From: Candidatus Staskawiczbacteria bacterium
GTDB taxonomy: Bacteria > Patescibacteriota > Minisyncoccia > Minisyncoccales > Staskawiczbacteraceae
Length of the DNA stretch: 64,000 bases
Direction: 5' to 3'
Assembly (NCBI GenBank): GCA_903928565.1
Contig: CAIYRH010000018.1
Span: 10,693 to 74,692 of the forward strand
Position 1 is the first letter of the stretch, and the number at the start of each line of letters is the position of its first letter. This document shows, piece after piece, positions 11,301 through 61,836 of the stretch. The position numbers were made by a program, and so were the translations under genes. The notes below the pieces were generated by a model. The model saw nothing but the letters and a program-made list of their open reading frames with translations, searched no databases and had not been told where the DNA came from.

Positions 11301-12268
11301 GGGATTGTAGTAAAAGCCACAACATCTGTTAGTGGAGTTGTTTCATCTTGAGCTGAAACTGTTACTAATTGCCCATTGTCTGTTTCGGTTTTTTCAATAA
11401 CGGGGGCGGGAGCCACATATTCCACCGCGATACAATTATCTGTTGCGTCACCCTGACAAGGTTGCTGATCTGGCTGAATATTTGAAGGATTTTCGGCAGG
11501 TTGTGTCTGGCTTTGATCTGGTGTAACGTCTGGCGGCGGGGTATTGTCTACTGGAGGTAAGTTAGTTTGATCTGTTGGTGGAGTTGTGTCGGTTGGCGAA
11601 GTTGTTTCTGTTGGCGGCGGTGTTTCGGTTATCGCTGGAGTCGAGGCAGTGGGCTCGCCCGCCACATTGTCCGCAGAATTTTGGGCGGGTTCGGCCGGTG
11701 CTGGATTAGAAACATCAACAAGTTGCGAGTTGCTGTCTGGCACAATGGCAGAAACCACGTTTTCTACCGCTTGCTGCTCATCGGCCAAAAAAAGACTCAT
11801 ACCGTCAGCCAAACTTCCTAAAAAATTTCTAGAAGAAACATTTTTGGCTACAGCGTTTTTAGCCGGTTTATTTTTTATGGATTTAATTATATTTAATCTT
11901 TGCTCTTCGGTAATTACAAATTGACCATTATTTTTCAAACTTTTAATTTCTTCTGGTGTTATTTTTTTTACCGTTACATTCGTGGCACTCTTAGGAACTT
12001 TTACTAAACGTTTTCCATTTTTTATTTCATTGGCATCTACTAAAGTAATCATTCTCACTGGTAGGCCGGCTACAACCTGAGAAGTAGAGGCTGTTCTAGT
12101 ATTTTTGAAAACAAAAACTTCTTCTCTATAATGGCTCAATTCAAACCAAATTCCCCAGACAAGAAACAAAAAAACTGCACAAGCTAAAACAGCCAAAATA
12201 TTCTTTTTGTTTTTCGAAAAGAATGCCACAAAAAACTCACAAAATTGATTGAAAGTTTTGCTTTGCAT
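5387..12268 (-). CDS. Giant (2293 aa) membrane-anchored surface protein with Pro/Thr-rich linker and at least ten tandem repeats of ~82 aa (beta-helix/adhesin-like)
   Basis: Single uninterrupted ORF; N-terminal TM; repeated block GPVVLGAN..TTSGTNTVNF..INGAYTLT..TVTFGGIIGGSTPIRTLSVTAGTAINLNTTAITLASGY. Confidence 0.7.
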   Translation of the reverse strand: MQSKTFNQFCEFFVAFFSKNKKNILAVLACAVFLFLVWGIWFELSHYREEVFVFKNTRTASTSQVVAGLPVRMITLVDANEIKNGKRLVKVPKSATNVTVKKITPEEIKSLKNNGQFVITEEQRLNIIKSIKNKPAKNAVAKNVSSRNFLGSLADGMSLFLADEQQAVENVVSAIVPDSNSQLVDVSNPAPAEPAQNSADNVAGEPTASTPAITETPPPTETTSPTDTTPPTDQTNLPPVDNTPPPDVTPDQSQTQPAENPSNIQPDQQPCQGDATDNCIAVEYVAPAPVIEKTETDNGQLVTVSAQDETTPLTDVVAFTTIPEIYKVGDEKKIKIKWKSNDGQEVKFTAKDLDGNGLIDYLEWTVPHLSEQTFEIIFISKAFQLDASQNIISDIYDKVRAQDGNWAQLTDGQYIRATFDQALQNFNDNTIYARPRDPSSPVKIEVYPVYTDENGNMTDGPLVATFENIDHEDTYKIPLTNLQNSTDTFDLKIFGNVDVDFVVDPNNYWTNTDNNNSYNDANNWSLGHVPTSSDTAVFDTTSTADCNINVDVSVAALQLNSGYSGTVTQTSTYIVTSAGAVAISAGKLTLINSNTLSGGVTLNAGGTLNINSALALGAGTLTINGGTIDNTSAGSVTINNAETWNASFAFTGTQALNLGTGAVTLGANTTVTISNSQTLTIGGTINGAYTLTISDTGGIVTFGGNIGGSTPIRTLAVTATTINLNTTAITLASTYGITFTGAVVLGANVAITTSGTNTVNFTSTINGAYNLTVGAGTGTVTFGGIIGGSTPIRNFYITASTAINLNTTAITFASGYSPSFTGPVVLGANISITTSGTNTVGFSGSSSTTINGAYTLTINAGASGSVNFSGVIGGTTPIRTLSVTATSGINLSASAITIAANYGATFTGPVALGTDVTINCSGTAHTINFTSTINSSANLTINGGASTTVTFGGIIGGSTPLHNLSVTAGTAINLNTTAITLYSGYSATFTGPVVLGANLAISTAGVNTVNFAGTINGAYNLTAGSSTLTLGGAIGGTTPLHTLSFSGSTAINLNTSAITLASGYNLSFNAAVTLGSPTTTITTSGTNSVTFMSPVNGANNLTINAGASGTVYFYGTIGNLTPIRTLSVTAGTAISLSTSAITLASGYGATFTGPVTLNSATVTITPAGTSTINFTSSVSGANNLTIAGVAGTTVTFGGSIGSPTPIHTLAVTAGTAINLNGAGITLAANYGATFTGPVVLGATVSIGCSGTSHTINFTSTINGAQGLYINGGTNTTATFGGIIGGSTPIQTLSVTAGTAININTTGITLASGYSPTFLGPVVLGVNTSITTSGSNTVNFSGSTATINGAYTLTINSGSFGTVTFGGIIGGSTPIRTLSVTASTAINLSKNVTIAANYGATFTGPVVLGANVQINCSGTAHTINFTSSISGAYTFTISGVAGTTVAFGGIIGSPTPIQTLSVTAGTAINLNTSLITIAANYGATFTGPVVLGSPVTVNCSGTAHTINFAQTINGAQTLTVSGGANTTVTFGGVVGGTTPLSTINITAATINSNANMAFTGGTWSGAVALGTTCVWTINTGTLAIGGIISGSTFGIQKNGDGTLTLSGANNFSGGFQMNTGILNINNASALGSALAWINGGTINNTSGNPITVTNDINWGGNFAFTGTKDINFSGAWWQSDYHYITVNGGNLTISGTINDDTNYIGIGKYGTGALTLSGDNNTDDNPAIAFGGVSVYAGTLNIANAGALGGPYGILYLYGGTIDNTSGSPLTVTGTSCSFYGNFAFAGTNDLSFDTVSSSMLYASSQITTNTAGKTLTFEGGISGSNSYVMTKAGAGALTLSGTNIFSGGTTLNAGTLTVNNSSGLGTGQFLQSGGTFVGTGDINIGGNFSLSGGTFNSTSGNLSVAGNWSHTTGTFNHNNGTVTFNGTNQSIAGSTNFKNFSKIDTTNNSTDVILTFDHTGTQTIAGLLTLQGIDNNDRVNLVSDSPGTRWGLVANGTFAINYADVTDSDASGGTTVVQTNSIDGGHNLNWLFNVAPYISGSVSTYDATTLSSTDITLIGNSTKNVVCSATAYDGNGYSDLTGVTAVLYRSGVGAGAGDDRSNHYTLTSQCVASGGSGNTQVYTCTFSVYYYADATDAGTYSGENWLCKITPADHVGAGTSTVSSGIEMDTLKYIDVSSLNYGSLTPGQNTTSDHKATVTNEGNVATGFKVSGVESALTCSSRGTIAIGYEQYHLTSFVYGGGAALAQVETDTGASINKPTQSTPLPTQDTYWQMYVPNGVKGTCTGSTTFGVN
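7570..10290. repeat. At least ten in-frame tandem DNA repeats of ~246 bp inside the giant protein gene
   Basis: Recurring ccgggccggtaaatgttgc...gcaagagtaattgc landmarks at ~7820, 8060, 8310, 8560, 8815, 9060, 9295, 9545, 9795, 10045. Confidence 0.6.
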
Positions 12269-16984: not shown

Positions 16985-19213
16985 TTACTTATATGCCTTC
17001 ATGCTCAAGGAATTTAGCACCACGCTTACTGAAGAAAATGCCATGGCCCCCGCGGCAATTGAAGGGCTTAACAGCCAACCAGTAAATGGGAACAAAACGC
17101 CCGCCGCCACAGGAATTCCAACTATATTATAAAAGAAAGCCCAAAAAAGTCCCTGTTTTATTTTTCTTAAAGTGTAAACACTCAAATGAATTGCCTTAAC
17201 AACATCGCGCAAATCATTTTTAATTAAAACAATTTCTCCGGTTTCCATTGCAACATCGGTGCCACTACCCAAAGCAATTCCCAAATTTGCTTGAGCTAAG
17301 GCGGGCGCATCGTTTATGCCATCACCCACCATAGCCACGACTCTTCGAGTCGTGGAATTTCGAATTTCGAAATTCGAATTTCGAATTTGCTCGCCAGATT
17401 GCAATTTTTTAATAATCTGTGCTTTATCTTGCGGGAGGATCTCTGCAAATACATAATCTATACCAAGCTGGCGAGCTATGGCTTGGCCCACTCTTTTATT
17501 GTCTCCTGTAATTATTGCAACTTCTTTTCCCATTTTATGCAGGGTTTCAATGGCCTCTTTTGAATGTTCTTTTAAAACATCTGCCACTGCAATAATTCCA
17601 ATGATTTTTCCGCCCTGCGCTAAAATCATAGCCGTTTTGCCCTGATCTTCAAGCGTTGTCATTTTGTCTTCTATTAAATCAACCGGAATTTTATTATCGT
17701 TCATTAACATTCTTGTTCCTAATAAAATTTGCTTTCCCTCCAATAGAGCCTTAACGCCCCTGCCCGGAATTGCTTCAAACGCTTCAACTACGCTTAGCAC
17801 AAGCCCTTCTTTTTTTGCTTTGTTTACAATTGCTTGAGCCAAGGGGTGTTCTGAATTTTTTTCTACACTTGCTGCAATCTGCAAAATTTCGTTTTGAATT
17901 TCGGATTTCGTACTTCGAGTTTCCGTGATTGAAATTATGTCAGTCACGGTTGGTTCGCCCCTAGTAAGGGTGCCTGTTTTATCAAAAACAACCATATTAA
18001 CATCTTTTGCCATTTGCAGGGCTTTACTGGACTTTATTAAAATTCCATTTTTAGCGGCCAAGCCCGTGCCCATCATAACGGCGGTTGGCGTTGCTAACCC
18101 CAAGGCACACGGGCAAGCTATTATAAGCACCGCAACAAACACCGAAAGAGCTACAGAAATTTGGTGCACTATTAAAAACCAAGCCAACCCCGAAATTAAA
18201 GCAATTCCAATTACAACCGGCACAAAATAAAATGAAACTTTATCTGCCAAAAGCTGAATTGGTGCTTTGCTTCCCATGGCCTCTTCAACAATTTTAATTA
18301 TTTGGCTAATCATTGTGTCTTTGCCAACGCGAGTTGCCCGAAATTGCAAAACGCCAGTTTTATTTATGGTGGCACCAATAACTTCGTCACCTTTTTTCTT
18401 TTCAACCGGCATTGATTCGCCGGTAATTGCCTGTTCGTCAACACCCGAATAACCGCTTACAACAACACCATCAACCGGAATTTTTTGCCCTGGTTTTACT
18501 AAAATAATATCGCCAACCATAACTGCCGAGATTTGTATTTCCACTTCTTCGTTTCGGATTTCAGATTTCGAAATTCGAATTTCCCGCAACACTGTTGCGG
18601 TCTTTGGTGCCAAGCCAATTAATTTTTTTATGGCAGAAGAAGTTTTACCTTTTGTAACTGCCTCTAAATATTTCCCTAAAGAAATAAATATTAAAATAAA
18701 GATTGCACTTTCAAAATAAACCTCACCACCTAAAAACATTTCTACGATACTATATATAAATGCCACGGCAGTACCAATAAAAATTAGCGAATCCATATTG
18801 GGCGCTAATTTTACAAGTTTTTTAAACCCCGAAGTCCAAATATCGAAACAAATTAGAATAACCGCCAAGGCCAAAATTGCTTGCACATATTTGGGAATAA
18901 AATCCATTTTTCCTGCCACCATTGCAATAATTATGGGCAAGCCAAAAATAAGAGATAAAATAAATCTAGTTTTTAGTCTTTTAGATTCGTCTTTAACCAC
19001 GCCCTCAACAACTTTATATCCCGCACTTTTAATAGCATTTTTTATGTTGTCTTCTTTAATAATTGTTTCGTCAAAATCAATGTAAGCTTTTTCAGAAGCC
19101 AAATTAACGGTGGCTGAATTAATGCCCTTTTCTTTTTTTAGACTATATTCAATAACCGAAGCGCAAGAAGCGCAAGTCATTCCACCAATATTTAAGACAA
19201 TTTTTTTATCCAT
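16985..19213 (-). CDS. copA: Copper-translocating P1B-type ATPase
   Basis: N-terminal [14 protein letters not shown] motif, [17 protein letters not shown]; carries three in-frame heptamer-repeat inserts. Confidence 0.85.
17345..17390. repeat. (TTCGAAT)n-type heptamer repeat inserted in-frame in copA (encodes [10 protein letters not shown])
   Basis: gaatttcgaatttcgaaattcgaatttcgaattt. Confidence 0.65.
17885..17925. repeat. Degenerate heptamer repeat in copA (encodes [13 protein letters not shown])
   Basis: aatttcgttttgaatttcggatttcgtacttcgagtttccg. Confidence 0.5.
18547..18586. repeat. Heptamer repeat in copA (encodes [14 protein letters not shown]) ending in tttcccgc
   Basis: cgtttcggatttcagatttcgaaattcgaatttcccg. 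Confidence 0.6.
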
Positions 19214-21200: not shown

Positions 21201-21360
21201 AGTGTTTATTAATTTAATTAGTATTTTACCCCTACCTAGGGTATAGGTCTATGATATCAAAAGCAAGCCCCCGTGTCAATACCCCACCCCATTTCATATA
21301 ATAAAAAATCCCCGACAACAAGCGCAAAATTGAACTTGCTATCGGGGCATCAACGCCTGC

Positions 21361-22071
21361 TTACGCAGGCGGGATAACGGAGGAAACAACGGAACGGGAA
21401 CGCAGGTAGTCACTAGCATAGCCGGGGCTGTCCCAGTAGACAACGACCTCGCCACGGTCGACGACGAAGTACACGCCCGGCACGTAGCCACTGGAGCTGC
21501 GCGAGCCCGTACACAAGGTGGCATTTTTGACGTCCAAAAAATGACGGGTCGTCAGAAAATACCCAAGTTCAGGGAGCAGGCGCTCCAAAAGCGTGGCGCC
21601 CTTATGGCTTTCCGTCTTCAGCACGTTGGCCGACTTATTGGCATTTTCCTCGTCTGCCTCGACTGTCCGACGAAAACCGACAACGTACGAGCCGTCGCGG
21701 TTTGGGTCGCGGTCGTTGGTGGACACGTCTTTGTCGAGGTCATCAATATCGGTGCCGACCTTCAAACCAAACGGCTTCAGCACCTCGCGGAGCGTGGCAA
21801 CCACCTTATTGCAGGTGACGCCCTTAACCGCAGGCACAAGCCAGAGATTCGGGTTTTCCGCGACGCCGAGCTTTTTACTGACCTCGGCATACTCAGCAGA
21901 CATACCGAGCGCCGCATAGGTTATTTGCCAGTTAATATCGGGCACATTGCCGAATACAAACTGTTGCAGCACCTCGGCGAAAGCCTCTGGCTCCCGCTTT
22001 CCGTCGAGCACCAGCTTGTTAGCACTGGCTGCTAGTTTCCATAGACGTTCAAACACATTGTCATTGCTCAT
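21361..22071 (-). CDS. Hypothetical protein on a high-GC (~58%) island
   Basis: Start at MSNDNV with AAGGAAA RBS; strong GC contrast to flanks; terminator-like hairpin at 21305-21345. Confidence 0.5.
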   Translation of the reverse strand: MSNDNVFERLWKLAASANKLVLDGKREPEAFAEVLQQFVFGNVPDINWQITYAALGMSAEYAEVSKKLGVAENPNLWLVPAVKGVTCNKVVATLREVLKPFGLKVGTDIDDLDKDVSTNDRDPNRDGSYVVGFRRTVEADEENANKSANVLKTESHKGATLLERLLPELGYFLTTRHFLDVKNATLCTGSRSSSGYVPGVYFVVDRGEVVVYWDSPGYASDYLRSRSVVSSVIPPA

Positions 22072-22207
22072 GACAGTTTCCTTTCTTATAAGCACGATGA
22101 AGCAATTGCCCAGTTTGGTAGCACCAAACCAGTAAAACAACTACTATTGTCAACGAGCCTACTACCGTCTTATTACCACAAAAAAACAACGCTGTCAAGC
22201 ATTATTT

Positions 22208-23332
22208 TTACTTAATAATTCCGCCGCCGAGGACTTGGTTACCTTTGTAAAAAACGGCGGATTGGCCTTGGGCTAGGGCTTTGCCGGATTTTTTAAAAAC
22301 TAATTTACCATCTTTATATAAAGTTGCTTTTTGCAAAGGGGCTCTATAGCGAGTGCGCGCGTCAACCAAAACCGGAAAACTTGTTGGCCTATTTATCCAA
22401 TTAATATTTACAATTTTGGCTGTTTTGGTGGCTAAATCTTTTTCTTTACCAACATATATTATATTTTTCTTTAAATCTTTTTTAACAATAAAATATGGCC
22501 CATGCCCATCTGTTATGTTTAAGCCGTGGCGTTGGCCAATTGTATAATAATATACGCCATCATGCATTCCGATGACTTGGTCAGCGGAGTGTCCTGAGCG
22601 AGCAAAGCGAGTCGAAGGATTCCACAAAATTATTTTACCTATTTTTGGTTTTATATACATTTTTAAAAATGCCTTCATATCAAACTGCCCCACAAAGCAA
22701 ACCCCTTGGCTGTCTTTCTTTTCGGCGTTGTCTAATTTAAATTTCTTAGCTAATTTTCTAACTTCGGGTTTTACTAAATTCCCCACCGGAAAAATTATTT
22801 TATCTAACTGATTTTTTTTAATTTCATACAAAAAATACGTCTGATCTTTATTTGCATCGTGGGCAGTTTGTAGTTTGTAGTTTGTAGTTTGTAGTTTTTT
22901 ATTTTTAGATTTATTTCGAATTTCGAATTTCGAATTTCGAATTTCCCGCTTTATGCGGGCGTAGTGTCCTGTTGCCACAAAATCAAAACCCTCTTTCATT
23001 GCCCTATCAAAAAAATAACCAAACTTTATTATTTTATTACACATAACGTCGGGGTTTGGAGTAATCCCCTTTTTATATGAGTCAATCATATACTTGCCCA
23101 CCTGAGTCTCATATTCTTTTGAATAATCCCAGGTTAGAAAAGGAATTTTAAGTTTGGCACATGCCCGCATTGCATCTTGCCTGTCTGTTTTCCAAATGCA
23201 TTCTTTGCCTAAAATTTCCGGCGCCCACTGACGCATATAAATTCCAACTACGCTAAAACCAGCCTTTTTCAGCAAAGCCGCTGAAACACTAGAATCTACG
23301 CCCCCAGACATTGCACAGGCGACCTTAACCAT
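22208..23332 (-). CDS. mnmA: tRNA 2-thiouridine(34) synthase
   Basis: PP-loop AMSGGVDSS; length and C-terminal domain; contains heptamer repeats and a GC-rich insert. Confidence 0.85.
   Translation of the reverse strand: MVKVACAMSGGVDSSVSAALLKKAGFSVVGIYMRQWAPEILGKECIWKTDRQDAMRACAKLKIPFLTWDYSKEYETQVGKYMIDSYKKGITPNPDVMCNKIIKFGYFFDRAMKEGFDFVATGHYARIKREIRNSKFEIRNKSKNKKLQTTNYKLQTAHDANKDQTYFLYEIKKNQLDKIIFPVGNLVKPEVRKLAKKFKLDNAEKKDSQGVCFVGQFDMKAFLKMYIKPKIGKIILWNPSTRFARSGHSADQVIGMHDGVYYYTIGQRHGLNITDGHGPYFIVKKDLKKNIIYVGKEKDLATKTAKIVNINWINRPTSFPVLVDARTRYRAPLQKATLYKDGKLVFKKSGKALAQGQSAVFYKGNQVLGGGIIK
22865..22943. repeat. Composite heptamer element (AGTTTGT)x4.7 - spacer - (TTCGAAT)x4 - TCCCGC, in-frame in mnmA
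   Basis: agtttgtagtttgtagtttgtagtttgtag...ttcgaatttcgaatttcgaatttcgaatttcccgc. Confidence 0.7.
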
Positions 23333-27169: not shown

Positions 27170-27769
27170 CTATATTCTTGCAATAGCAATGAAAACTTCG
27201 TTTATGAAGCGCTGAGTCCGCCCTTCGTTTGCCGACTTTGACTTCATTGCTTTAATTAAGCGAGTTGCAACCTTCGCTAGCTTGATGCGGTTTTCGATCG
27301 CATATTCCAACTTAAGTAAATCCCTTCGGTATATTTCACGAATTTTCCGAGAATCATCCTCCACGTCCATAGAAATAGACACCGTTTCCGACATGGGCAG
27401 ACAAGTCAAAGTGGCACCAAATCTTTCTCCAACAATGGGATGCTCGCCATTAACCCACTGATATTCGCCATAGCGCGTTGGGCGCCTGCCGGAAGGAATG
27501 CGTGCATGCGTATAATGCACAGACACATTAATAAGCTTCATGCAGGTAGGACCCGCATCGAAAAGCGTATTCTCGGGGCAATGGCTGCTACCAGTATCGA
27601 GAATACACTTTGCCCAATCCTTATGGTCATAACTTGCCTCTAGTATATTCCCGTCAAGATGCTTAATCTTCAAGCCCCTTCTTTCCAGCGACTCTTTTCC
27701 TGCGCTTAGGATTCCTAGTGGGTTTTCAAGCCCGGGCACCACTAAATACATCAATTTTATCGTTTTCAT
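27170..27769 (-). CDS. Hypothetical protein on a high-GC island; paralog of the gene at 50606-51268
   Basis: Shared TCLPMSETVS/TCLPIDETVS and RTQRFINEV..IARI/RAQRFIIEL..IARS; own terminator at ~27125-27165. Confidence 0.5.
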   Translation of the reverse strand: MKTIKLMYLVVPGLENPLGILSAGKESLERRGLKIKHLDGNILEASYDHKDWAKCILDTGSSHCPENTLFDAGPTCMKLINVSVHYTHARIPSGRRPTRYGEYQWVNGEHPIVGERFGATLTCLPMSETVSISMDVEDDSRKIREIYRRDLLKLEYAIENRIKLAKVATRLIKAMKSKSANEGRTQRFINEVFIAIARI

Positions 27770-27934
27770 ACAGGTATTTTTCTGTAAATGATCAATCAGT
27801 GTTCCGCGGCACACTGAAAAGCCGTTAGATATAATCTATATCTTTTCTAAATTTTTGTCAAACAAAAAATCGCCCTACTTACGGACGATTTTTAAATACG
27901 ATTTTTTATTTTTCTAAAAAACGGTTTTTACTAG

Positions 27935-30900
27935 CTATTTATTAAGCTCATTAAGCTTATTTCTTGTATTTGACCCCACCATTCCATATTGAAGTGATTT
28001 TGCTGTAAGAATATTATATTTTAATTGAAAGGCCTTAACTGATTTTAATGTTGTTGGGCCAAAACTTTTAGTTGAGTTTATTGATTGCGAAAAGAGATTT
28101 AATTTCTTTAAAATATTTTGCAACAAAATAACTTCGCTGTCGTAGCTACCAAATCTTAAATCTTTAGTTAATAATTGAGGCGTAGTTGGATTTTGCCCTC
28201 TTTGAGCCAATATTTGCTGTATAAGAATTTGCAATTGAAGAATTTGTGCTTTTAGAGATTCTATGGTTGGGGTGTTGTTTGGTGGAATATTTATTGGAGA
28301 TACTGGGGGCGTGGTTACCGATATTGCTGAAAAGTTTGCTAAAATTGTATGGGATTGGGTAACATTACTGAATGTATAGGTTGATCGGGCTCCAACAGAA
28401 ATATTATCTACTAGTACATCTGCAATTTGGTATCCTGTATATGGGGTAATGGTGAAGGTATAGCTTCCTCCTCGCGCGATAGACTGGCTTTGTGGAGTAA
28501 TTGAACCATTAGGGGTTACGTAGACTGAAATTGGATAATATGTTAGCCCTCCGCCACCGGGTGCTCTGGTTACAGTAATTGTGTATGTATTTGTGCTTGA
28601 ATCTTGAGCAGTTACTACAACCGTGATTGTATTAGAACCCACGTTTAGTGGCAATGAATCAGATGGTAAGCCAGATGTAATAGCTATAGGAGTTGAATTA
28701 TTAATGGATATTGTCATAGTTGCACTTGCCTGATTTCGTGTTGGGGTAACTGTTAAATTATTTGTATTGTAATCAACACTTTCGGTATATGAAGTTGTTT
28801 CCGATGAAAACGTTGGAGATAACGTGCCCGCGCTAATGGCAAGATTACTTAGGGTGGCGTCGGCGCTTGCCGGTGTTACAGTTATTGTATATGTTGCTTG
28901 CGAAACACCATCCTGAGCTAAAACAACTAAGGTATCTCCAGTTAATATTGGATCATGTATACCGGTATCTGTCCATGTCTGATTAATTTGACCTTTAGTT
29001 AGATTAGATTCAAAAGTCGCCTTAGATGTATTGTATGGAACATTAATTATTGTTCCCGCATTGCCAACAAGCGAACTAACCGTATAAGTTGATGAACTAA
29101 CTGTATCATTGCTACTTAGAGAAAAATAAGATATATTGCTTGGATTAGACCACCCTGATTGACCATTTGTAAGGGTGAATGTCTTACTACCCGATGAAGC
29201 AGGGGTATATGTAAAAGTAAATGAATTCGCAGAAGCAGCGGGAGTAACCGTTACCGACGAAATACCAGATGAGCCAACTGACGGAGTAAATGTACCGCCA
29301 TCTCCGCCGTCTGAAATTGTTATCGTTTGGTCTCCAATAAATGGCGCACTATTTCCTAAAGTCACAGTAAATGCTGTGCTAGTTTGTGATGCCGATCCAC
29401 TTGAAGGCCCAGAAACAGTATAGCTTGGCTGAGCTAATATTGGAGCAATACGTTTTGCATATTTTACAAATCCACTGTCTGTAGGATGCACATCATTACT
29501 TACATCTGATAAGGTTAATAGAGTTGTTCCATCAACTAATGCCGCATAACTACTACGCGCATTACACACTGTAGCAATTTGTGATCTATAATCTGCCAAA
29601 GTATTTCCATTTGAATTAAGCGGACCAGTAATTTCAGAACCCCTAACAAGAGGAGTTTGACAAATAACACGCGCAGCTGGCAATGCAGAATGTAGACCAT
29701 CTAATAAATTACCGTAAGCCGTACCGAAACTATTTACATTCCAACTATCGCCCCAATCATTTGTGCCAATAGCAAGATATATTGTTGAGGGCGTGTATGA
29801 CACAAGCCGACTTACAAACGCATTCAATAATCCGACCGTATGAGCATCATCGTATAAAGCGCGGTACCCCCACCCCTCTAACATTACACTCTGGCCGTAA
29901 AGATTTCTTAGCAATGGAACATATGCTTGGCTTTCAGGATTAGTTGCATAAGCTCCGGCTGATATACTATCACCATATACAAGCACACGATTTGGTGTGT
30001 CGTTAGGTGGCAACACATTAAATGAAGCAGTAGCAGGATATGTGATACTATTAATAAATGAACCACTCACAGTATTCGTGCCCCCATCGCTCTGCATTCC
30101 CGTAATTATATCTACAGTACGCGTAGTACCCGCAGAACCAAGATTAACCGTAAAACTTTGAGATGCACTAGTAAACGATAAAGGCGACTGGTCTACTCCG
30201 TTTATTTGCACGCCCAAAGTTGCATAATAATTTGGATATAAAGTTGAATTACCGGTAACGGTAATACTTGCTGCGTTAGTTGTAAAAACAAATCGAGCAA
30301 ATGTTGATTGCTTGGGTGCGTTAACATTATCATACCCATTATCCCACAAATCTGCTTGCTGAACATTATATGTGATATCATTCGTCACTATCGTTAATAT
30401 ATTTGAGGTGGCGGTACTTGATGTGGCATCGGTGTAGACGACTTTATAATCATAACTTGTTGAAGGGCTTAGTCCCGTGTCTGTTACCGGGCTTGTAGTT
30501 GCGCCACTTACATTTGACCATGTGTTTGCACTGTGTGCACTGCGTTGCAATTGCGCTGTTATTGGGGCAGTACCACCAGATGCGACCGTCCATGACACAG
30601 TAGCAGAAGTAGATGTTTGAGATACCGAAGAAAGAACACCAGCCGACAAACTATTATCTGCAGTTACCGTTAATATATTTGAGGTGGCGGTACTTGATGC
30701 TGTATCGGTATAGACAACTTTGTAATCATAACTTGTTGAAGGGCTCAATCCCGTGTCTGTTGCCGGGCTTGTAGTTGCGCCACTTACATTTGACCACGTG
30801 TTTGCGCTGTGTGCACTTCGTTGCAATTGCGCTGTTATGGGGGCAGTACCGCCAGATCCGCTTGTCCAGGAAACGGTGGCAGAAGTAGATGTTTGAGATA

Positions 30901-31615
30901 CCGAAGAAAGAACACCAGCAACCAAAGGATTATTATCGGTCACTAAAAAATTATCAATATGCACTTGAGTTGTCGCTGTTGCTGGCTGATCAAAATACAT
31001 GCAAGGAACACCAATAGAACCAATAATGTTTCCTCCGGTTGCGGTTACATCTATTACAGAAGACGCATCCCAATATACTTTAATATTATTACCATTCATT
31101 ACCAATTTCATAGCATGAGTCTGACCCGCAGCAAGTCCGGATAAACTATAAGCTCCAATTTGAGTTCCAATAGTTGAATATAATTTAATCATCGGACCGG
31201 GTGACACAGTAGCAAAATAGCCAAGGGTACTCGCACCACAACGTCCGCCAATCCCAGTATTGCCACTCACCACGCCATCCGCTAAATATACATCAGCCGA
31301 AACCGTATAGTTATATGTGGGTGGCGAGAAAGAACTATCGTATATGTCCATACTACTTAAAAGATAAATCCTGCCGGCACTTGATATGGTTACGTCTCCC
31401 CAATAAATAGCATTATTCTTGACCCAAGTATTGCCATCAGCGGTATGATTTTGTAATAAAGTACCGGTAGTATCTGTAAATGTATCGTTAACATATGTTG
31501 TAGCGCTAGCTTCATGCACAGAGCTAAAAAATAAAAAACAAGCAAAAAATAAAATTGCAACAGCTTTATAATTAAGAAACATTTTCTTCCAAATTTTATT
31601 TTCCATTACTACCAT
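27935..31615 (-). CDS. Large secreted multidomain protein: two FN3 repeats, SGNH/GDSL hydrolase domain, cadherin-like beta-sandwich, C-terminal peptidoglycan-binding domain
   Basis: Signal peptide; GDSIS and DxxH SGNH motifs; repeated FN3 block; C-terminal PG_binding_1-like helices. Confidence 0.6.
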   Translation of the reverse strand: MVVMENKIWKKMFLNYKAVAILFFACFLFFSSVHEASATTYVNDTFTDTTGTLLQNHTADGNTWVKNNAIYWGDVTISSAGRIYLLSSMDIYDSSFSPPTYNYTVSADVYLADGVVSGNTGIGGRCGASTLGYFATVSPGPMIKLYSTIGTQIGAYSLSGLAAGQTHAMKLVMNGNNIKVYWDASSVIDVTATGGNIIGSIGVPCMYFDQPATATTQVHIDNFLVTDNNPLVAGVLSSVSQTSTSATVSWTSGSGGTAPITAQLQRSAHSANTWSNVSGATTSPATDTGLSPSTSYDYKVVYTDTASSTATSNILTVTADNSLSAGVLSSVSQTSTSATVSWTVASGGTAPITAQLQRSAHSANTWSNVSGATTSPVTDTGLSPSTSYDYKVVYTDATSSTATSNILTIVTNDITYNVQQADLWDNGYDNVNAPKQSTFARFVFTTNAASITVTGNSTLYPNYYATLGVQINGVDQSPLSFTSASQSFTVNLGSAGTTRTVDIITGMQSDGGTNTVSGSFINSITYPATASFNVLPPNDTPNRVLVYGDSISAGAYATNPESQAYVPLLRNLYGQSVMLEGWGYRALYDDAHTVGLLNAFVSRLVSYTPSTIYLAIGTNDWGDSWNVNSFGTAYGNLLDGLHSALPAARVICQTPLVRGSEITGPLNSNGNTLADYRSQIATVCNARSSYAALVDGTTLLTLSDVSNDVHPTDSGFVKYAKRIAPILAQPSYTVSGPSSGSASQTSTAFTVTLGNSAPFIGDQTITISDGGDGGTFTPSVGSSGISSVTVTPAASANSFTFTYTPASSGSKTFTLTNGQSGWSNPSNISYFSLSSNDTVSSSTYTVSSLVGNAGTIINVPYNTSKATFESNLTKGQINQTWTDTGIHDPILTGDTLVVLAQDGVSQATYTITVTPASADATLSNLAISAGTLSPTFSSETTSYTESVDYNTNNLTVTPTRNQASATMTISINNSTPIAITSGLPSDSLPLNVGSNTITVVVTAQDSSTNTYTITVTRAPGGGGLTYYPISVYVTPNGSITPQSQSIARGGSYTFTITPYTGYQIADVLVDNISVGARSTYTFSNVTQSHTILANFSAISVTTPPVSPINIPPNNTPTIESLKAQILQLQILIQQILAQRGQNPTTPQLLTKDLRFGSYDSEVILLQNILKKLNLFSQSINSTKSFGPTTLKSVKAFQLKYNILTAKSLQYGMVGSNTRNKLNELNK
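30402..30933. repeat. Two near-identical 266-267-bp tandem DNA repeats (FN3 domain duplication)
   Basis: cgttaatatatttgaggtggcggtacttgatg recurs at 30402 and 30668. Confidence 0.7.
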
Positions 31616-37834: not shown

Positions 37835-37928
37835 CGAAGCACGAAATCCGAAATCCGAAACAAATCATAATTTTCAAATACTAAAAATTCAAAACAAGTT
37901 TCGAATTTCGAAATTCGAATTTCGAGTT
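37835..37928. repeat. Intergenic heptamer repeats (CGAAATC)n and (TTCGAAT)n in inverted arrangement between nrdA and nrdB
   Basis: aatccgaaatccgaaac ... gtttcgaatttcgaaattcgaatttcgag. Confidence 0.6.
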
Positions 37929-37938
37929 TCAAATCAAT

Positions 37939-40111: not shown

Positions 40112-40184
40112 GTTTAGCGATACTAATAATATACTAATCTCATACCAATGATACTAATTAGCTTCAATTCTCACAATTTTTTTT

Positions 40185-40202
40185 GGTTATCACGTGATAA
40201 CC
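40185..40202. promoter_or_regulatory. Palindrome box GGTTATCACGTGATAACC, 8 nt upstream of TTGTGA-N17-TATCAT promoter of tgt
   Basis: Perfect 18-bp palindrome. Confidence 0.6.
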
Positions 40203-40220
40203 TAAGCTTTTTTATTTCAC

Positions 40221-40412
40221 CTAACTTTTTAATAAATATTTTATATCTGTTTTTTTAATTATAAAATTGGGCCCGACTTTTACTGCTTTGATTGCTCCCC
40301 GATTAATTCTTTTCAGTACAGCCACCCGACTAATTTTTAAAAGCTTCGCCAGCTGACTCACGGATAAAAACTCACTTTTTTCTATAATAACATCTTTTAA
40401 ACTGTTGCTCAT
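40221..40412 (-). CDS. Excisionase/MerR-type helix-turn-helix DNA-binding protein (63 aa)
   Basis: LSVSQLAKLLKISRVAVLKRINRGAIKAVKVG matches the excisionase-family HTH; flanked by palindrome boxes. Confidence 0.6.
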   Translation of the reverse strand: MSNSLKDVIIEKSEFLSVSQLAKLLKISRVAVLKRINRGAIKAVKVGPNFIIKKTDIKYLLKS

Positions 40413-40436
40413 ACTACGGCTATTTACTTATATTCT

Positions 40437-40460
40437 TCAGGTTATCACGTGATAACCTGA
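40437..40460. promoter_or_regulatory. Perfect 24-bp palindrome TCAGGTTATCACGTGATAACCTGA upstream of HTH gene
   Basis: Read directly. Confidence 0.65.
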
Positions 40461-40480
40461 GACTTTCAATAAATTACAAA

Positions 40481-40900
40481 TTAGAGGTTTTTACTTAAAT
40501 AGTACCAATCCACCCCATAATAATATTTTGGAAGAACTGCATCTTTTTTATAACCCATTTTCTTATAAAAATGTATGGTTTTGGGCCACGCAGATGAGGT
40601 TTTTACAACCGATTTAACACAATTTTTTTTGATCTTTGCCCAAGCCTCAACGTGACTAAATAACTGGGTACCAACACCGCTCCCCCGCAAACCATCCTTC
40701 ACAAGCAAAGACCGAATTTCTGCAATTCCGCCCCTAATTTCAACTTGAGCATATGCGATAATTTCTTTGCCCGAATATGAGGCAAAATAAAATGTTTTTC
40801 TAGAAGGTAAGAAGTTAAACTTTTTATCATTTATTGCCCATTGTTTGTTCCCAAAACTTTCAGTCGCCGTTTTTTTAACTTCTTTAATTTGAACATTCAT
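40481..40900 (-). CDS. GNAT-family N-acetyltransferase
   Basis: Acetyl-CoA motif RGSGVGTQL; start taken at MNVQIK, since upstream in-frame codons are a translation of the palindrome. Confidence 0.65.
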   Translation of the reverse strand: MNVQIKEVKKTATESFGNKQWAINDKKFNFLPSRKTFYFASYSGKEIIAYAQVEIRGGIAEIRSLLVKDGLRGSGVGTQLFSHVEAWAKIKKNCVKSVVKTSSAWPKTIHFYKKMGYKKDAVLPKYYYGVDWYYLSKNL

Positions 40901-40908
40901 ATTTATTT

Positions 40909-40932
40909 TCAGGTTATCACGTGATAACCTGA
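40909..40932. promoter_or_regulatory. Perfect 24-bp palindrome TCAGGTTATCACGTGATAACCTGA immediately upstream of GNAT gene
   Basis: Read directly. Confidence 0.65.
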
Positions 40933-40957
40933 GCATTTATGTCTTATTGTGTCGAAA

Positions 40958-50521: not shown

Positions 50522-50567
50522 ATTGTTTTTATTTTATCATAATAATTGAAACAAAAAAAGACCGCAA
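50313..50567. repeat. Direct repeat copy 1 (~255 bp, prfB promoter plus first ~75 codons), ~92% identical to 51604-51858
   Basis: Aligned by eye. Confidence 0.7.
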
Positions 50568-50605: not shown

Positions 50606-51268
50606 CTAAGACCTGGCAATGGAGAGCATGAGTTCTATGATGAACCGCTGAGCGCGCCCATAATTGAAAGTTTTTGCCTTGATAGCTTTTTCTAGGCGAC
50701 GAGCAGCACGCGTGACTTTGAGGTTGTGCTCAAGTTTATGCATCTCGCCCATAAAGAAACGACACCAAGCTAGACTCATAAACCTGGATAAACCACAGGG
50801 CATCTCCGCATTTAGCGACACTGTTTCGTCAATTGGCAAGCATGTCAATTTTGCGCTGAAAAAATTCATCGTCTTGAAGTAATCAGCACTGCCCACCTCA
50901 ATATCGCTATTCTCTCTGGGTATTTCATCTCCACTTATGAGAATTTGCCTGTTAGCCCAATCATAACAATGATATCCAACGCGCATGTTAGAGGGCAAAA
51001 CGGCATGATCGTAAGTGACCGCGATGCGCGAGATATAAAGACGTTCGTCGGTGGGCGTCCAATAAGAATGGATTACGGTGCCAGACGACCCCACGTCTTC
51101 AATTGCTTTTGTCCAGTTTTTTTCTTCCATCGACACAACAAGAGCGTCTTTAAGCCTGGTGCATCGCACATCTGGCCGGCCCGACCTGTTATACTCTTCC
51201 GCAGTAAAAGCACTAAATTGATCGCTGAGCGTAATAGCCTTGTAAGTGAAGCTCAATGTTTTTTTCAT
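50606..51268 (-). CDS. Hypothetical protein on a high-GC island; paralog of 27170-27769
   Basis: GGAGGA RBS before MKKTLSF; terminator hairpin 50553-50580; GC ~50% versus ~35% flanks. Confidence 0.5.
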   Translation of the reverse strand: MKKTLSFTYKAITLSDQFSAFTAEEYNRSGRPDVRCTRLKDALVVSMEEKNWTKAIEDVGSSGTVIHSYWTPTDERLYISRIAVTYDHAVLPSNMRVGYHCYDWANRQILISGDEIPRENSDIEVGSADYFKTMNFFSAKLTCLPIDETVSLNAEMPCGLSRFMSLAWCRFFMGEMHKLEHNLKVTRAARRLEKAIKAKTFNYGRAQRFIIELMLSIARS

Positions 51269-51394
51269 AGTACATTTCCTCCATTGTTTGGATGATGTAA
51301 AGAGCATCTGTGTTTAGATAAGGCACACCGAAAAGCCTCCGATGTTATAGCTTATAACACGAATTGTTTTATGTCAACAAAAAACGCTATTGCC

Positions 51395-51418
51395 TCAGGT
51401 TACCCTACGGTAACCTGA
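51395..51418. promoter_or_regulatory. Variant palindrome TCAGGTTACCCTACGGTAACCTGA followed by TTGACA promoter element of the 233-aa gene
   Basis: Same 8-bp outer arms as the consensus 24-mer, different centre. Confidence 0.5.
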
Positions 51419-51529
51419 GCCGAACTATTCCACTTTTTCGTGGAATGGCTGTGCCCCACCACCTTAATTTATTAATTTTTCATATAGGACAATTCTATAG
51501 AATTGTCCTATTGCGTTTTGTCGCACTTA

Positions 51530-51812
51530 TTATGCTACTTCGTTTTGATAACAACTTTCGCAATAAACTAATTCCGGACGGTCGGGAGAATAAGAAGTTT
51601 TGATTTCTTCCAATGCTGATATTTCATTTTTTATTTCTGAAATTTCTTGTTGGACTTCGGTAGCATGTTCGTTATCATTCCAAAAGTTAGGCAACACAGA
51701 TTCTTCTTCTAATTCTTTTAATTTCTTTTCTTTGCCAACTACATCAAAGACGGTCTCCCAAATTCTGGAGCCTTACTTCTAACTCTTCAATTTGCGGAGT
51801 TATATCTACCAT
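51530..51812 (-). pseudogene. Chimeric relic: duplicated prfB 5' end (start, frameshift site, ~55 +1-frame codons) fused in-frame to the last 23 codons of a Cys-rich-family gene (KTSYSPDRPELVYCESCYQNEVA)
   Basis: Start 51810-51812; stops TAA TAA at 51527-51532; followed by relic family intergenic palindromes (51420-51530). Confidence 0.6.
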
Positions 51813-51858
51813 ATTGTTTTTATTTTATCATAATAATTGAAACAAAAAAAGACCGCAA
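51604..51858. repeat. Direct repeat copy 2 of prfB 5' region
   Basis: See 50313-50567. Confidence 0.7.
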
Positions 51859-51883: not shown

Positions 51884-52309
51884 CTATCCGGCCATTATGC
51901 CAGTCATAAAATTTTCTACCTCCAAAGCGATTTCTAGGCTCGTCAGACCGTCTTTCAGAGTCAGCACTAACGGATCTACCGTTTTTTCCATTGCTTCGAA
52001 TGCAAAACTATCGACACCAAAGATGACAATAGGCAAACATGGAATCTCCTCGCGCAATCTATGGTAAAGCGCTATGCCCGTTTCGCAACCACCCGCAACC
52101 AGATGTTCCCTAAACACTCCCCCGTATGGCAAAAAGTTAGAAGTGACTAACAGCTCTGACCGTTGGTCTTCTGGCTTATCAAATTGTTCCAAAACCGCCG
52201 AAGCATAGTCACAAACCACAACTTTATGCCCAGCTTTTTGCAATCTTGCAATGAGTATTTCATTAAAAAATCTACTATCTGTAGCGAATGCAATTCTGAA
52301 CGTTTTCAT
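51884..52309 (-). CDS. Hypothetical protein with degenerate CheY-like receiver fold (phospho-acceptor Asp not evident); moderately GC-rich
   Basis: AAGAAGGGAA RBS; pattern MKTFRIAFATDS...LLVTSNFLPYGG...IPCLPIVIFG resembles a receiver-domain scaffold. Confidence 0.3.
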   Translation of the reverse strand: MKTFRIAFATDSRFFNEILIARLQKAGHKVVVCDYASAVLEQFDKPEDQRSELLVTSNFLPYGGVFREHLVAGGCETGIALYHRLREEIPCLPIVIFGVDSFAFEAMEKTVDPLVLTLKDGLTSLEIALEVENFMTGIMAG

Positions 52310-52410
52310 GACGTTTGATTCCCTTCTTGTTGTGAAGTTGCTACGATTGATTAAGATCAATTATAATACTACCCGAATTATTCTATCTGTCAACAAAAAA
52401 CGCTATTGCC

Positions 52411-52434: not shown

Positions 52435-52435
52435 G

Positions 52436-55972: not shown

Positions 55973-55978
55973 TGAATT

Positions 55979-61324: not shown

Positions 61325-61543
61325 TTAAATTGCAAGATGGTTTAGCAAAAGGCGCAAAAGTTCACACGAATCTTCGTTGCGGTCAAACACAAACACAAAC
61401 TCGCCCCGCTCTTGCGCAAAGCTAAGTGCCCAATCAACGATGTTGGCATAAATGAACGCCAGTGCGCAGTGCGGTTTATTTCTAAGTGTTAAAACCAACA
61501 GTGGCTTATGAGATATAAGCCAATGAACAAATTCCTGTCTCAT
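61325..61543 (-). CDS. Hypothetical small protein (72 aa from MRQEFVHW), tandem paralog of 61561-61836; GC-rich
   Basis: AAGAAGGGAAACG RBS; DWALSFAQERGEFVFVF versus EWAMRFAQATGTGLLLY; terminator hairpin 61288-61312. Confidence 0.4.
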   Translation of the reverse strand: MRQEFVHWLISHKPLLVLTLRNKPHCALAFIYANIVDWALSFAQERGEFVFVFDRNEDSCELLRLLLNHLAI

Positions 61544-61560
61544 TTTGTTCGTTTCCCTTC

Positions 61561-61836
61561 TTATTGAAATTGCGCTGGGTCGATGCCCTTTAGAATTTTC
61601 GCGTAACGTTTTTGGCAAAAGTGTAAGAGATCTTCATGAATGCGATGTCCAGGATAAAGTAACAACCCCGTTCCTGTTGCCTGCGCAAAACGCATTGCCC
61701 ACTCATAAAGCAAGCTTGAAAAATGTATTAGTATCTCGTCTGGGGACAACTTCATTGCCAACAAAAATTCGCCAATTGCTTCTTCCCCGCGACTTTCAAG
61801 ATCCTGTACGAACCATTTCATAAAATGAATATTCAT
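61561..61836 (-). CDS. Hypothetical small protein (91 aa), paralog of the preceding gene
   Basis: Promoter-like TTGACA...TATAAT at 61893-61921. Confidence 0.4.
   Translation of the reverse strand: MNIHFMKWFVQDLESRGEEAIGEFLLAMKLSPDEILIHFSSLLYEWAMRFAQATGTGLLLYPGHRIHEDLLHFCQKRYAKILKGIDPAQFQ

What the first reader, a model, noticed from the sequence alone, without database searches (positions are those of the whole stretch)
21250..22150. Several single-gene high-GC islands in a ~35% GC genome, two of them paralogous and carrying the same TTGACA promoter stub
GC-rich (about 50-58%) segments occur at 21.3-22.1 kb (236-aa protein), 27.1-27.8 kb (200-aa), 50.6-51.3 kb (220-aa, paralog of the previous; shared TCLP..ETVS and RxQRFI..E....IAR blocks), 51.9-52.3 kb (CheY-like) and 61.3-61.8 kb (tandem 72/91-aa paralogs). 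Each has its own RBS and a hairpin terminator. The two paralogs both follow a CGTTTTTTGTTGACA-type promoter fragment, which in the 50-52 kb copies is fused to the palindrome box. This pattern suggests repeated acquisition of small foreign cassettes that are plugged into the palindrome regulon.
Basis: partly seen in the sequence, partly recalled or inferred. Interest (0 to 1): 0.55.

Follow-up and report, generated by a model that had tools for sequence, protein, structure and literature searches.

The report
Stand-alone DGR variable-protein gene, GC-rich
The strongest GC-rich island in this low-GC Patescibacteria (CPR) genome is a gene for a hypervariable protein of the kind rewritten by diversity-generating retroelements; it sits here without its reverse transcriptase, and its GC-richness is shared by its whole gene family, so it is not evidence of foreign DNA.

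Summary
In a 37.5% GC window, the six ORFs named have the six highest third-codon-position GC values. Only the 236-aa gene (21361-22071, minus strand) reaches 50-58% GC (55.8%; GC3 0.67); the others are 41-46%.

The 236-aa gene belongs to a Patescibacteria-only family with more than 170 homologs and no Pfam domain. In about 20 related loci the same gene is followed by a template repeat and a reverse transcriptase, and the repeat mismatches fall almost only at template adenines. These are classical diversity-generating retroelements (DGRs).

The window copy has the variable region, the VR-type boundary sequence (IMH) and a GC-rich hairpin with a 4-nt loop. It has no template repeat or RT within the 64 kb, and its variable region is identical in three assemblies. 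It is therefore a remote target or a frozen former target.

GC-richness is family-wide: 40 of 46 loci are GC-richer than their flanks, while the partner RT genes are AT-richer than their hosts. Simple foreign origin does not explain this.

The other islands are unrelated to it:
- the 199-aa gene has a positional homolog in a sibling genome;
- the 220-aa and CheY-like genes lie in a lineage-specific 9.3-kb block next to tRNA genes.

Verdict: a new member of a known kind.

The parts
21361..22071 (-). CDS of the 236-aa DGR-type variable protein (ATG 22071-22069, stop TAA 21363-21361). GC 0.558, GC3 0.667.
   Evidence: ORF. 173 homologs. AlphaFold pLDDT 93.3. Composition.
21406..21510 (-). Variable region (VR), diversifiable part, about codons 188-222. 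It carries NNY codons where the TRs of relatives carry AAY.
   Evidence: identical to five TRs at 43 of 46 invariant non-A columns, but different at 23 of 34 TR-adenine columns. Protein alignment.
21376..21405 (-). IMH-like 3' boundary of the VR. CTGCGTTCCCGTTCCG is followed by the VR-type end GTTGTTTCC (TRs have GAAGTCTCC).
   Evidence: The 16-mer is identical to that of the L003 DGR VR and TR.
21354..21371 (-). GC-rich inverted repeat CGCCTGC-GTAA-GCAGGCG. This is the DGR target-site hairpin/cruciform candidate. The stop codon lies in its loop.
   Evidence: Comparable hairpins follow the VRs of L001, L003, L009 and L010. Criteria from PMC3240598.
21303..21347 (-). Intrinsic terminator: a 14-bp stem CCCCGAUAGCAAGU...GCUUGUUGUCGGGG followed by U6.
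   Evidence: MFE -48 kcal/mol, z -5.1. Sequence.
22076..22198 (-). Upstream region. Candidate promoter TTGACA (22198-22193), 17-nt spacer, TAATAA (22175-22170). RBS AAGAAAGGAAA (22086-22076).
   Evidence: Read from the sequence. The consensus scan did not call this promoter, so it is weak or inferred.
27170..27769 (-). 199-aa gene, a second GC island (GC 0.453). It belongs to a rare family of about 200-aa proteins and has a positional homolog upstream of SpoU in L059.
50606..51268 (-). 220-aa paralog of the 199-aa gene (GC 0.459).
51884..52309 (-).
   Evidence: the only database match is itself.
61325..61836 (-). 72-aa and 91-aa ORFan pair (GC 0.43 and 0.41), only weakly similar to each other.
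51598..51858 (-). Duplicated prfB 5' end, 91% identical to 50307-50567, including the CTTTGA frameshift site. It marks the local duplication that gave p220 and the CheY-like gene the same upstream and downstream modules.
   Evidence: (repeat family D10).
51372..51419 (-). Palindrome CTCAGGTTACCCTACGGTAACCTGAG plus GCGTTTTTTGTTGACA, upstream of p220. The twin copy is at 52388-52435, upstream of the CheY-like gene.

Best explanation
The island at 21.3-22.1 kb is a protein-coding gene for a variable protein of a diversity-generating retroelement (DGR), from a family found only in Patescibacteria.

**How it works in relatives (shown).** A reverse transcriptase encoded 0.4-1 kb downstream copies a template repeat (TR). 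It misincorporates opposite template adenines. The cDNA then overwrites the last ~120 nt of the gene, the variable region (VR). AAY codons become NNY, which randomises about 10-12 surface residues on a fixed scaffold.

**The window copy (shown).** It carries every cis feature of a recipient:
- a C-terminal VR with the NNY pattern;
- the VR-type boundary sequence (IMH);
- a 7-bp GC hairpin with a 4-nt loop.

The window has no TR and no RT.

**Inference.** This is a stand-alone target. It is either served in trans by a DGR elsewhere in the genome or is a formerly diversified copy that is now fixed.

**GC content.** The high GC is mainly at third codon positions and spans the whole scaffold. It is a trait of the gene family in whatever host it sits, and it is larger in RT-linked copies. 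Its cause is not established. Candidates are selection on the target gene or its mRNA, GC-biased gene conversion at a recombination-prone accessory locus, or frequent lateral spread among CPR genomes.

**Other islands.** The other GC-enriched genes are unrelated accessory genes with separate histories.
For: **Real protein**
- 173 homologs, all from CPR or groundwater-type assemblies, none with a Pfam domain.
- The scaffold is conserved and the C-terminal 45 residues alternate fixed and variable positions.
- The AlphaFold model has pLDDT 93.3.

**DGR linkage in relatives**
- An RVT_1 reverse transcriptase lies directly downstream in L001 and L003.
- RT was found by tblastn in 17 of 50 loci.
- TR-VR pairs have mismatches almost only at TR adenines: L010 14/14, L017 17/17, L028 19/19, L047 22/22.

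**Window copy**
- The VR matches five TRs at 43 of 46 invariant non-A columns, but differs at 23 of 34 TR-adenine columns.
- The boundary sequence is of the VR type, not the TR type.
- The IMH 16-mer is identical to that of L003.
- The hairpin CGCCTGC-GTAA-GCAGGCG lies 14 nt after the VR end. This fits the published criteria of 7-10 bp GC stems, a 4-nt loop and 4-34 bp distance (PMC3240598).

**Composition**
- GC3 is 0.67 against a median of 0.317. A3 is 0.09 against 0.36.
- Across the family, scaffold GC minus flank GC averages +0.068, positive in 40 of 46 loci (p=2.5e-7).
- RT genes average -0.085, positive in 0 of 15.
- Linked copies average +0.105 and unlinked copies +0.047 (p=0.03).

**Literature.** CPR DGRs form their own clade, their targets lack recognisable domains, and remote targets are known (PMC8144416, PMC5758913).
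Against: - No TR (blastn-short) and no RT (tblastn) anywhere in the 64-kb window.
- The rest of the 92.7-kb source contig could not be fetched.
- Among 20 TRs recovered from metagenomes, none is cognate to this VR; each has at least 19 non-adenine mismatches.
- Two other assemblies of this organism, from different samples, have the same VR DNA as the window. The only differences are one T-to-G substitution at the VR edge and a 1-nt deletion in an A-run upstream. There is no sign of ongoing diversification.
- About 22 family members have no TR or RT within 10 kb. Several of these lack the DGR-type hairpin, so the family includes non-diversified paralogs.
- The hairpin loop GTAA departs from the GRNA consensus.
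- The fold was not recognised as a C-type lectin fold by Foldseek.
Confidence: 0.85

Rival explanations
1. Frozen relic. The gene was diversified by a DGR in the past, but this genome no longer has a cognate TR or RT. It now evolves as an ordinary gene for a binding protein.
For: The VR is identical in three assemblies. There is no TR or RT in 64 kb. The closest homolog, L058, also lacks a TR or RT within about 7 kb downstream. Many family members are unlinked.
Against: The IMH and hairpin are intact, and in L058 the hairpin is kept with a different stem sequence. The ORF is intact. The GC offset (+0.13 to +0.24 across the gene) lies in the range of RT-linked copies. Assemblies give consensus sequences and can hide minority variants.
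Confidence: 0.45
2. One reading: the islands are recently acquired foreign cassettes from GC-richer donors, wired into a palindrome-controlled regulon.
For: The composition is atypical. p236, the CheY-like gene and p220 are present or absent among relatives. The 50.5-59.6 kb block abuts tRNA-Thr and tRNA-Gly. Palindromes sit upstream of two of the genes.
Against: All p236 homologs are in Patescibacteria. The GC offset recurs in 40 of 46 hosts, while the RT of the same cassette is AT-rich. p199 is positionally conserved in L059, with a conserved promoter and leader, yet is still GC-rich. No PHROG or PADLOC hit was found for any of the six proteins, and no mobility gene was seen next to them (not searched for systematically). 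Four of the six genes have no palindrome. The shared promoter stub is the product of a local duplication.
Confidence: 0.15
3. The GC-rich stretch is a structured non-coding RNA, or a chance ORF in GC-rich DNA, and not a protein gene.
For: GC-rich DNA in an AT-rich genome often encodes RNA. Long ORFs occur in several frames here.
Against: There is no Rfam hit. The protein family has 173 members conserved at the amino-acid level. GC is strongly partitioned by codon position: GC3 0.67 against GC2 about 0.40. The structure model is confident.
Confidence: 0.01

Closest known systems
CPR/Patescibacteria DGRs and their target genes (DGR clade 2 of Roux et al. 2021, PMC8144416; the 'CPR set' with unclassified VR classes UVR1-6 of Wu et al. 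2018, PMC5758913; Paul et al. 2017, Nat Microbiol, cited from memory because the paper was not readable here)
   Same: In relatives the layout is target, then TR, then RT on one strand. Mismatches are adenine-specific. The VR is C-terminal. The target has no transmembrane segment or recognisable domain. The host range is Patescibacteria from groundwater-type samples.
   Different: The window copy has no TR or RT within 64 kb. Which published target cluster it belongs to was not determined.
Remote (non-adjacent) DGR targets, e.g. those of the Treponema denticola DGR (PMC5758913, section 'Non-adjacent target genes')
   Same: A VR-bearing gene with an IMH sits far from any RT and could be served in trans.
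   Different: In Wu et al., targets more than 100 kb away were seen only in lineage 4 DGRs and their neighbours on the RT tree. [quoted passage not shown] Here the cognate TR has not been found, so trans-targeting is inferred and not shown.
Bordetella phage BPP-1 Mtd target site (IMH plus hairpin/cruciform; Guo et al. 2011, PMC3240598)
   Same: A GC-rich boundary sequence ends the VR. A 7-bp GC-rich inverted repeat with a 4-nt loop follows a few nucleotides downstream, and a separate terminator comes after it.
   Different: The loop is GTAA instead of GRNA. The IMH is not a (GC)14 run. The protein shows no detectable sequence or Foldseek similarity to Mtd.

Membership tests
DGR target (variable-protein) gene | Homologous to genes whose 3' end pairs with a nearby template repeat that differs almost only at template adenines, next to a reverse transcriptase | tested here: met
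   About 20 related loci have TR-VR pairs, e.g. 14/14, 17/17, 19/19 and 22/22 mismatches at TR adenines. RT hits have E<=1e-89.
DGR target (variable-protein) gene | C-terminal variable region in which variable codons are NNY at the positions of AAY in the templates, with scaffold positions fixed | tested here: met
   (43/46 invariant non-A columns kept; 23/34 TR-adenine columns changed). Protein alignment.
DGR target (variable-protein) gene | IMH at the 3' end of the VR, distinct from the IMH* of the TR | tested here: met
   CTGCGTTCCCGTTCCG is followed by GTTGTTTCC as in VRs; TRs have GAAGTCTCC.
DGR target (variable-protein) gene | GC-rich inverted repeat (7-10 bp stem, 4-nt loop) 4-34 bp downstream of the VR | tested here: met
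   criteria from PMC3240598. The loop is GTAA, not GRNA. Wu et al. found such repeats in only 34% of DGRs, so the feature is supportive rather than obligatory.
DGR target (variable-protein) gene | A cognate TR that differs from this VR only at adenines | tested here: not met
   None in the 64-kb window. None among 20 metagenomic TRs. The rest of the genome could not be examined.
DGR target (variable-protein) gene | DGR reverse transcriptase (and accessory gene) in the same genome | not testable with these tools
   No RT in the window. The source contig beyond the window and the other contigs were not retrievable.
DGR target (variable-protein) gene | VR heterogeneity within or between populations | tested here: inconclusive
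   Three assemblies share the same VR. Consensus assemblies cannot exclude minority variants.
C-type lectin (CLec) fold VR domain (Mtd/TvpA/AvpA type) | Sequence match to CLec or FGE-sulfatase models, or structural match to solved DGR variable proteins | tested here: inconclusive
Horizontally acquired genomic island | Atypical composition, and absence from the syntenic position in relatives | tested here: met
   Composition. In L003 the slot after mnmA holds another gene, and L058 has different neighbours. The CheY-like and p220 block is absent in L003. This is not true for p199, which is positionally conserved in L059.
Horizontally acquired genomic island | Composition that reflects a foreign donor: the whole cassette is atypical, and the deviation is not found in other hosts | tested here: not met
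   The target is GC-richer than the host in 40 of 46 loci, while the RT of the same cassette is AT-richer in 15 of 15. The p199 family is also GC-rich in L059, L064 and L065.
Response-regulator receiver (CheY-like), for the 141-aa ORF | Match to Response_reg models above threshold | tested here: not met
   No Pfam hit. The best NCBIfam hit is CpdR at E=0.02, 14.9 bits against a cutoff of 180. The protein is an ORFan.

The most novel reading that the evidence does not exclude
DGR target genes of this CPR family carry a built-in compositional signature. The whole scaffold is GC3-rich and A3-poor, and the effect is stronger in RT-linked copies, while the partner RT gene is AT-rich. This could reflect a mechanistic or selective link to retrohoming. 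Possibilities include protecting the scaffold from adenine-directed mutagenesis or off-target reverse transcription, or GC-biased repair at a locus that is repeatedly overwritten. If so, GC3 islands could serve as a sequence-only marker for live remote DGR targets. Separately, the VR may be displayed on a fold that is not a recognisable C-type lectin fold.
Probability: 0.2. Interest if true: 0.65.

Novelty: new member of a known kind. Interest (0 to 1): 0.4.

Why it matters
- It replaces a vague 'foreign GC island' label with a concrete function. The gene is a hypervariable binding protein of the DGR type, in a lineage (CPR) where DGRs are thought to matter for attachment to host cells.
- It shows that DGR target genes can sit far from any RT yet keep complete target-site signals. 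Contig-based DGR surveys miss such copies by design (PMC8144416).
- The opposite composition of target and RT genes within the same cassette cautions against using GC deviation alone as evidence of horizontal transfer. If the effect is mechanistic, it could help find remote targets.

Tried and rejected
- **Non-coding RNA.** Rfam at gathering thresholds finds only three tRNAs in the window. This reading was rejected.
- **TR or RT in the window.** None was found.
- **Cognate TR or VR variants in metagenomes.**
  - A degenerate VR pattern found nothing.
  - The TR-type IMH* pattern found 20 TRs, none cognate.
- **Rest of the source contig.** Look-ups through proteins at both window ends and through p220 returned only short ENA contigs.
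- **Fold assignment.**
  - Foldseek against PDB and BFVD gave no hits for p236.
  - Foldseek against PDB gave no hit better than E=0.01 for the p220 family.
  - A profile search of PDB sequences found nothing.
- **Family libraries.** Pfam, NCBIfam, PHROGs and PADLOC gave nothing significant for any of the six proteins.
- **Trans-targeting within one MAG.** In RA.bin4, the TR of L032 does not match the VR of the unlinked copy L041.
- **Adenine avoidance as the cause of the GC.** A3 is strongly depleted, but T3 also falls. The codon usage resembles that of an ordinary gene from a genome of roughly 55% GC (this comparison is from general knowledge, not computed), so the data do not separate adenine avoidance from a general AT-to-GC shift.

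Full report

The window has 37.5% GC. A sliding-window profile shows its strongest GC peak at 21251-22150, with a 200-nt maximum of 59.5%.

All six exceed every background gene in GC3:

| ORF | GC | GC3 |
|---|---|---|
| p236 (21361-22071, minus) | 0.558 | 0.667 |
| p220 (50606-51268, minus) | 0.459 | 0.498 |
| p199 (27170-27769, minus) | 0.453 | 0.470 |
| p72 | 0.429 | 0.438 |
| 141-aa 'CheY-like' | 0.432 | 0.408 |
| p91 | 0.413 | 0.402 |

So the islands exist, but only the first reaches '50-58%'.

Other points of the observation:
- p199 and p220 are true paralogs (32% identity, E=1e-23).
- p72 and p91 are only marginally similar.
- The 'CheY-like' label rests on a sub-threshold NCBIfam hit.
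- The exact promoter stub GCGTTTTTTGTTGACA occurs twice only, upstream of p220 and the CheY-like gene.
- A further GC-rich stretch at 700-1150 lies inside a minus-strand ORF that runs off the window start. I took it to be a compositionally biased coding segment and did not test this.

**2. What the focal gene is**

The 236-aa protein has no Pfam or NCBIfam match. It has 173 homologs in the large protein collection, all unnamed or 'hypothetical'. The named ones come from Staskawiczbacteria, Parcubacteria and other Patescibacteria.

The first two genomic contexts I fetched were decisive. In L001 and L003 the homolog is followed within 0.4-0.8 kb by an RVT_1 reverse transcriptase. Its sequence contains LGNITSQ, which I recognise from memory as the DGR-type motif.

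Repeat searches found a copy of the last ~120-135 nt of the gene between the gene and the RT. The mismatches between the two copies fall at adenines of the downstream copy: 21 of 28 in L001 and 16 of 21 in L003. That is the signature of a diversity-generating retroelement, with a template repeat (TR) and a variable region (VR).

A scan of one genome per species gave 48 more loci, nearly all from Patescibacteria MAGs. Some are labelled otherwise but have the same low-GC flanks. Across all 50 loci examined:
- About 20 have a TR 360-500 nt downstream, with almost purely adenine-specific mismatches (L010 14/14, L017 17/17, L028 19/19, L047 22/22).
- 17 have an RT hit at E<=1e-89.
- About 22 have neither a TR nor an RT within 10 kb.

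**3. Anatomy of the window copy**

The protein alignment shows a conserved scaffold (residues ~45-185). It is followed by TLCTGSR.S.G.VP.V.F....G.V.V.W..PG.....LRSRSVVS, in which fixed and variable positions alternate.

At the DNA level I aligned the window VR with five TR-VR pairs of relatives:
- It is identical to the TRs at 43 of 46 columns where all TRs share a non-adenine base.
- It differs at 23 of 34 columns where the TRs carry adenine.
- Where L003's TR has AAY or AAG, the window has AGC, TAC, GGC, TAC, GTC, CGT, GAG, AGC, TAT, AGT and TAC. The third base is always kept.

The VR ends with CTGCGTTCCCGTTCCG, identical to L003. This is followed by GTTGTTTCC, the form seen in VRs (IMH). 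TRs have GAAGTCTCC instead (IMH*).

Fourteen nucleotides further on lies CGCCTGC-GTAA-GCAGGCG, at 21354-21371, with the stop codon in its loop. A separate strong intrinsic terminator follows at 21303-21347.

Guo et al. 2011 showed that an IMH plus a downstream GC-rich hairpin is sufficient to make a sequence a DGR recipient. The hairpin has a 7-10 bp stem and a 4-nt loop, and lies 4-34 bp from the VR (PMC3240598). RT-linked relatives have equivalent hairpins: L001 and L003 GCCCGC/GTCCCGC-GAA, L010 GTCCCGC-CAAA, L009 AGTCGCT-CGCA. Several unlinked family members have only a terminator.

The closest homolog from another genome (L058, 68% aa) keeps a GTAA-loop hairpin with a different stem sequence.

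**4. What is missing**

- The window contains no RT (tblastn with two family RTs).
- It contains no second copy of the VR (blastn-short).
- I could not fetch the remaining ~29 kb of the 92.7-kb source contig.
- A degenerate pattern for VR variants or the TR found nothing in the metagenome collection.
- Twenty TRs recovered with the IMH*-type pattern all have at least 19 non-adenine mismatches to this VR.
- Two further assemblies of this organism, from other samples, carry the same VR as the window. The only differences are one T-to-G change at gene nt 556 (L186V) in L056 and a 1-nt deletion in an A-run in L057. That deletion explains the frameshifted cluster P0002.

The copy is therefore competent-looking, but there is no evidence that it is being diversified now.

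**5. The protein**

An AlphaFold model built from 66 family members is confident (pLDDT 93.3, pTM 0.83). It has an N-terminal helical part and an alpha/beta core, and the VR forms the last three or four beta-strands.
- Foldseek found nothing in the PDB or in BFVD at E<0.4.
- A profile search of PDB sequences found nothing.
- No family member hits a Pfam lectin or FGE model.

Roux et al. 2021 note that CPR targets typically lack recognisable domains and may hide new C-Lec variants (PMC8144416). My result agrees with that and leaves the fold unassigned. I saw no N-terminal hydrophobic segment in the sequence.

**6. Why is it GC-rich?**

The excess is mostly at third codon positions (GC3 0.67, GC2 ~0.40). 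It covers the whole scaffold, not just the VR. Codon choice is inverted relative to the host:
- no AGA or AGG among 13 Arg codons;
- no TTA among 23 Leu codons;
- AAG in 10 of 14 Lys codons.

The effect is not peculiar to this genome:

| Comparison | Result |
|---|---|
| Scaffold GC minus flank GC, 46 loci | mean +0.068, positive in 40 (Wilcoxon 2.5e-7) |
| RT-linked copies | mean +0.105 |
| Unlinked copies | mean +0.047 (Mann-Whitney p=0.03) |
| RT gene GC minus flank GC | mean -0.085, positive in 0 of 15 |

A cassette whose two genes deviate in opposite directions, in dozens of hosts of one phylum, is not explained by import from a GC-rich donor.

Third-position adenine is strongly depleted (0.14 against 0.28 in linked copies), but thymine also falls. 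I therefore cannot separate adenine avoidance from a general AT-to-GC shift. The cause remains open, and I list selection, biased gene conversion and frequent intra-CPR transfer as candidates.

**7. The other islands**

- **p199 and p220.** They belong to a rare family: 30 representatives among 1.84 billion proteins. The family is about 200 aa long, gives a confident model (pLDDT 86.7) and has no structural match.
- **p199 is positionally conserved.** In L059 a 34%-identical homolog lies at the same place, directly upstream of SpoU-DUF5652-NUDIX. It has the same -35/-10 arrangement and the same 5' leader (GGCTTTTCRGTGTGCC...AACACTG), and it is also GC-rich (0.49 against 0.39).
- **p220 and the CheY-like ORFan.** They lie at the end of a 9.3-kb block (50.55-59.6 kb) made mostly of five treble-clef zinc-ribbon paralogs. 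The block is absent in the syntenic relative L003, where the order is p180, DivIC, tRNAs, prfB, ftsE, ftsX.
- **Origin of the shared modules.** A 261-nt copy of the prfB 5' end (91% identical, including the CTTTGA frameshift site) is fused to a zinc-ribbon 3' fragment and sits between the two genes. A local duplication therefore gave them the same palindrome-plus-TTGACA upstream module and the same terminator.
- **p72, p91 and the CheY-like ORF.** No relatives turned up: the CheY-like protein matched only itself in the large protein search, and p72 and p91 matched nothing in the family libraries or fetched loci.
- **No link to the DGR gene.** None of these genes resembles it.

**8. Verdict**

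It is wrong on the cause of the GC and on a common 'palindrome regulon' wiring, and it missed the identity of the main gene.
- The focal feature is a new member of a known kind, a stand-alone DGR variable-protein gene of the CPR type.
- Two side observations deserve follow-up: the opposite compositional bias of target and RT genes, and the unrecognised fold.

Noticed in passing
window 52436-59534 (minus strand): Tandem array of five paralogous treble-clef zinc-ribbon proteins (572, 216, 343, 567 and 551 aa; Pfam zf_Tbcl). They are separated by conserved intergenic modules that carry the palindrome CAGGTTATCACGTGATAACCTG and ACACGTGAC repeats. The whole block is absent from the syntenic relative L003.
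   Followed up: partly
window 51530-51858: A 261-nt duplicate of the prfB 5' end (91% identical to 50307-50567, including the CTTTGA +1 frameshift site) is fused to the last ~25 codons of a zinc-ribbon paralog. This is a rearrangement scar between the CheY-like and 220-aa genes.
   Followed up: partly
window 27790-27830 and 51300-51345; L059 7945-7985; L064 30-70; L065 520-560: A conserved 5' leader, GGCTTTTCRGTGTGCC(3-6 nt)RAACACWG, lies between the promoter and RBS of every examined member of the 199/220-aa family, even at 25-35% protein identity. It has no Rfam match and could be an RNA hairpin or an operator.
   Followed up: partly
window 17358-17393, 17892-17927, 18552-18587, 22914-22949, 37899-37934: A 36-nt TTTCGAATTTCGAA-type repeat occurs in frame inside the 742-aa gene (three times) and inside mnmA. 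There it encodes EIRNSKFEIRN-like inserts. One further copy is intergenic.
   Followed up: no
L059 463-1527: A sibling CPR genome has another single-gene GC island: an AP_endonuc_2 gene with GC 0.58 and GC3 0.69, against 0.39 for its flanks. Such islands are therefore a recurrent feature of these genomes.
   Followed up: no
L003 18412-19167 and 20610-20717: In the syntenic relative, mnmA is flanked by two moderately GC-enriched genes without Pfam domains. The upstream 251-aa protein has motifs reminiscent of the p236 scaffold (NDRR..., FYEFLG). The gene in the slot after mnmA is unrelated to p236 over the 36 residues that are visible.
   Followed up: no
L008 346-897 and 4232-4741; L024 9039-9548 and 10001-10621; L011 4348-5304 and 11324-12313: Some genomes carry two copies of the target family close together without an RT (L008, L024). 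L011 has two RTs within 7 kb. The family therefore expands locally as well as through DGR cassettes.
   Followed up: no
window 40166-40933: Three more copies of the TCACGTGA-centred palindrome lie upstream of small minus-strand genes, including a GNAT acetyltransferase (40481-40936) and a Gmad2-domain protein (40958-41428). These are far from the zinc-ribbon array.
   Followed up: no
window 5387-12268 and 27935-31615: Two very large minus-strand genes (2293 aa and 1226 aa) have internal repeats, with a period of about 249 nt in the first and a 276-nt tandem repeat in the second. Judged from their sequences alone, they look like surface proteins.
   Followed up: no
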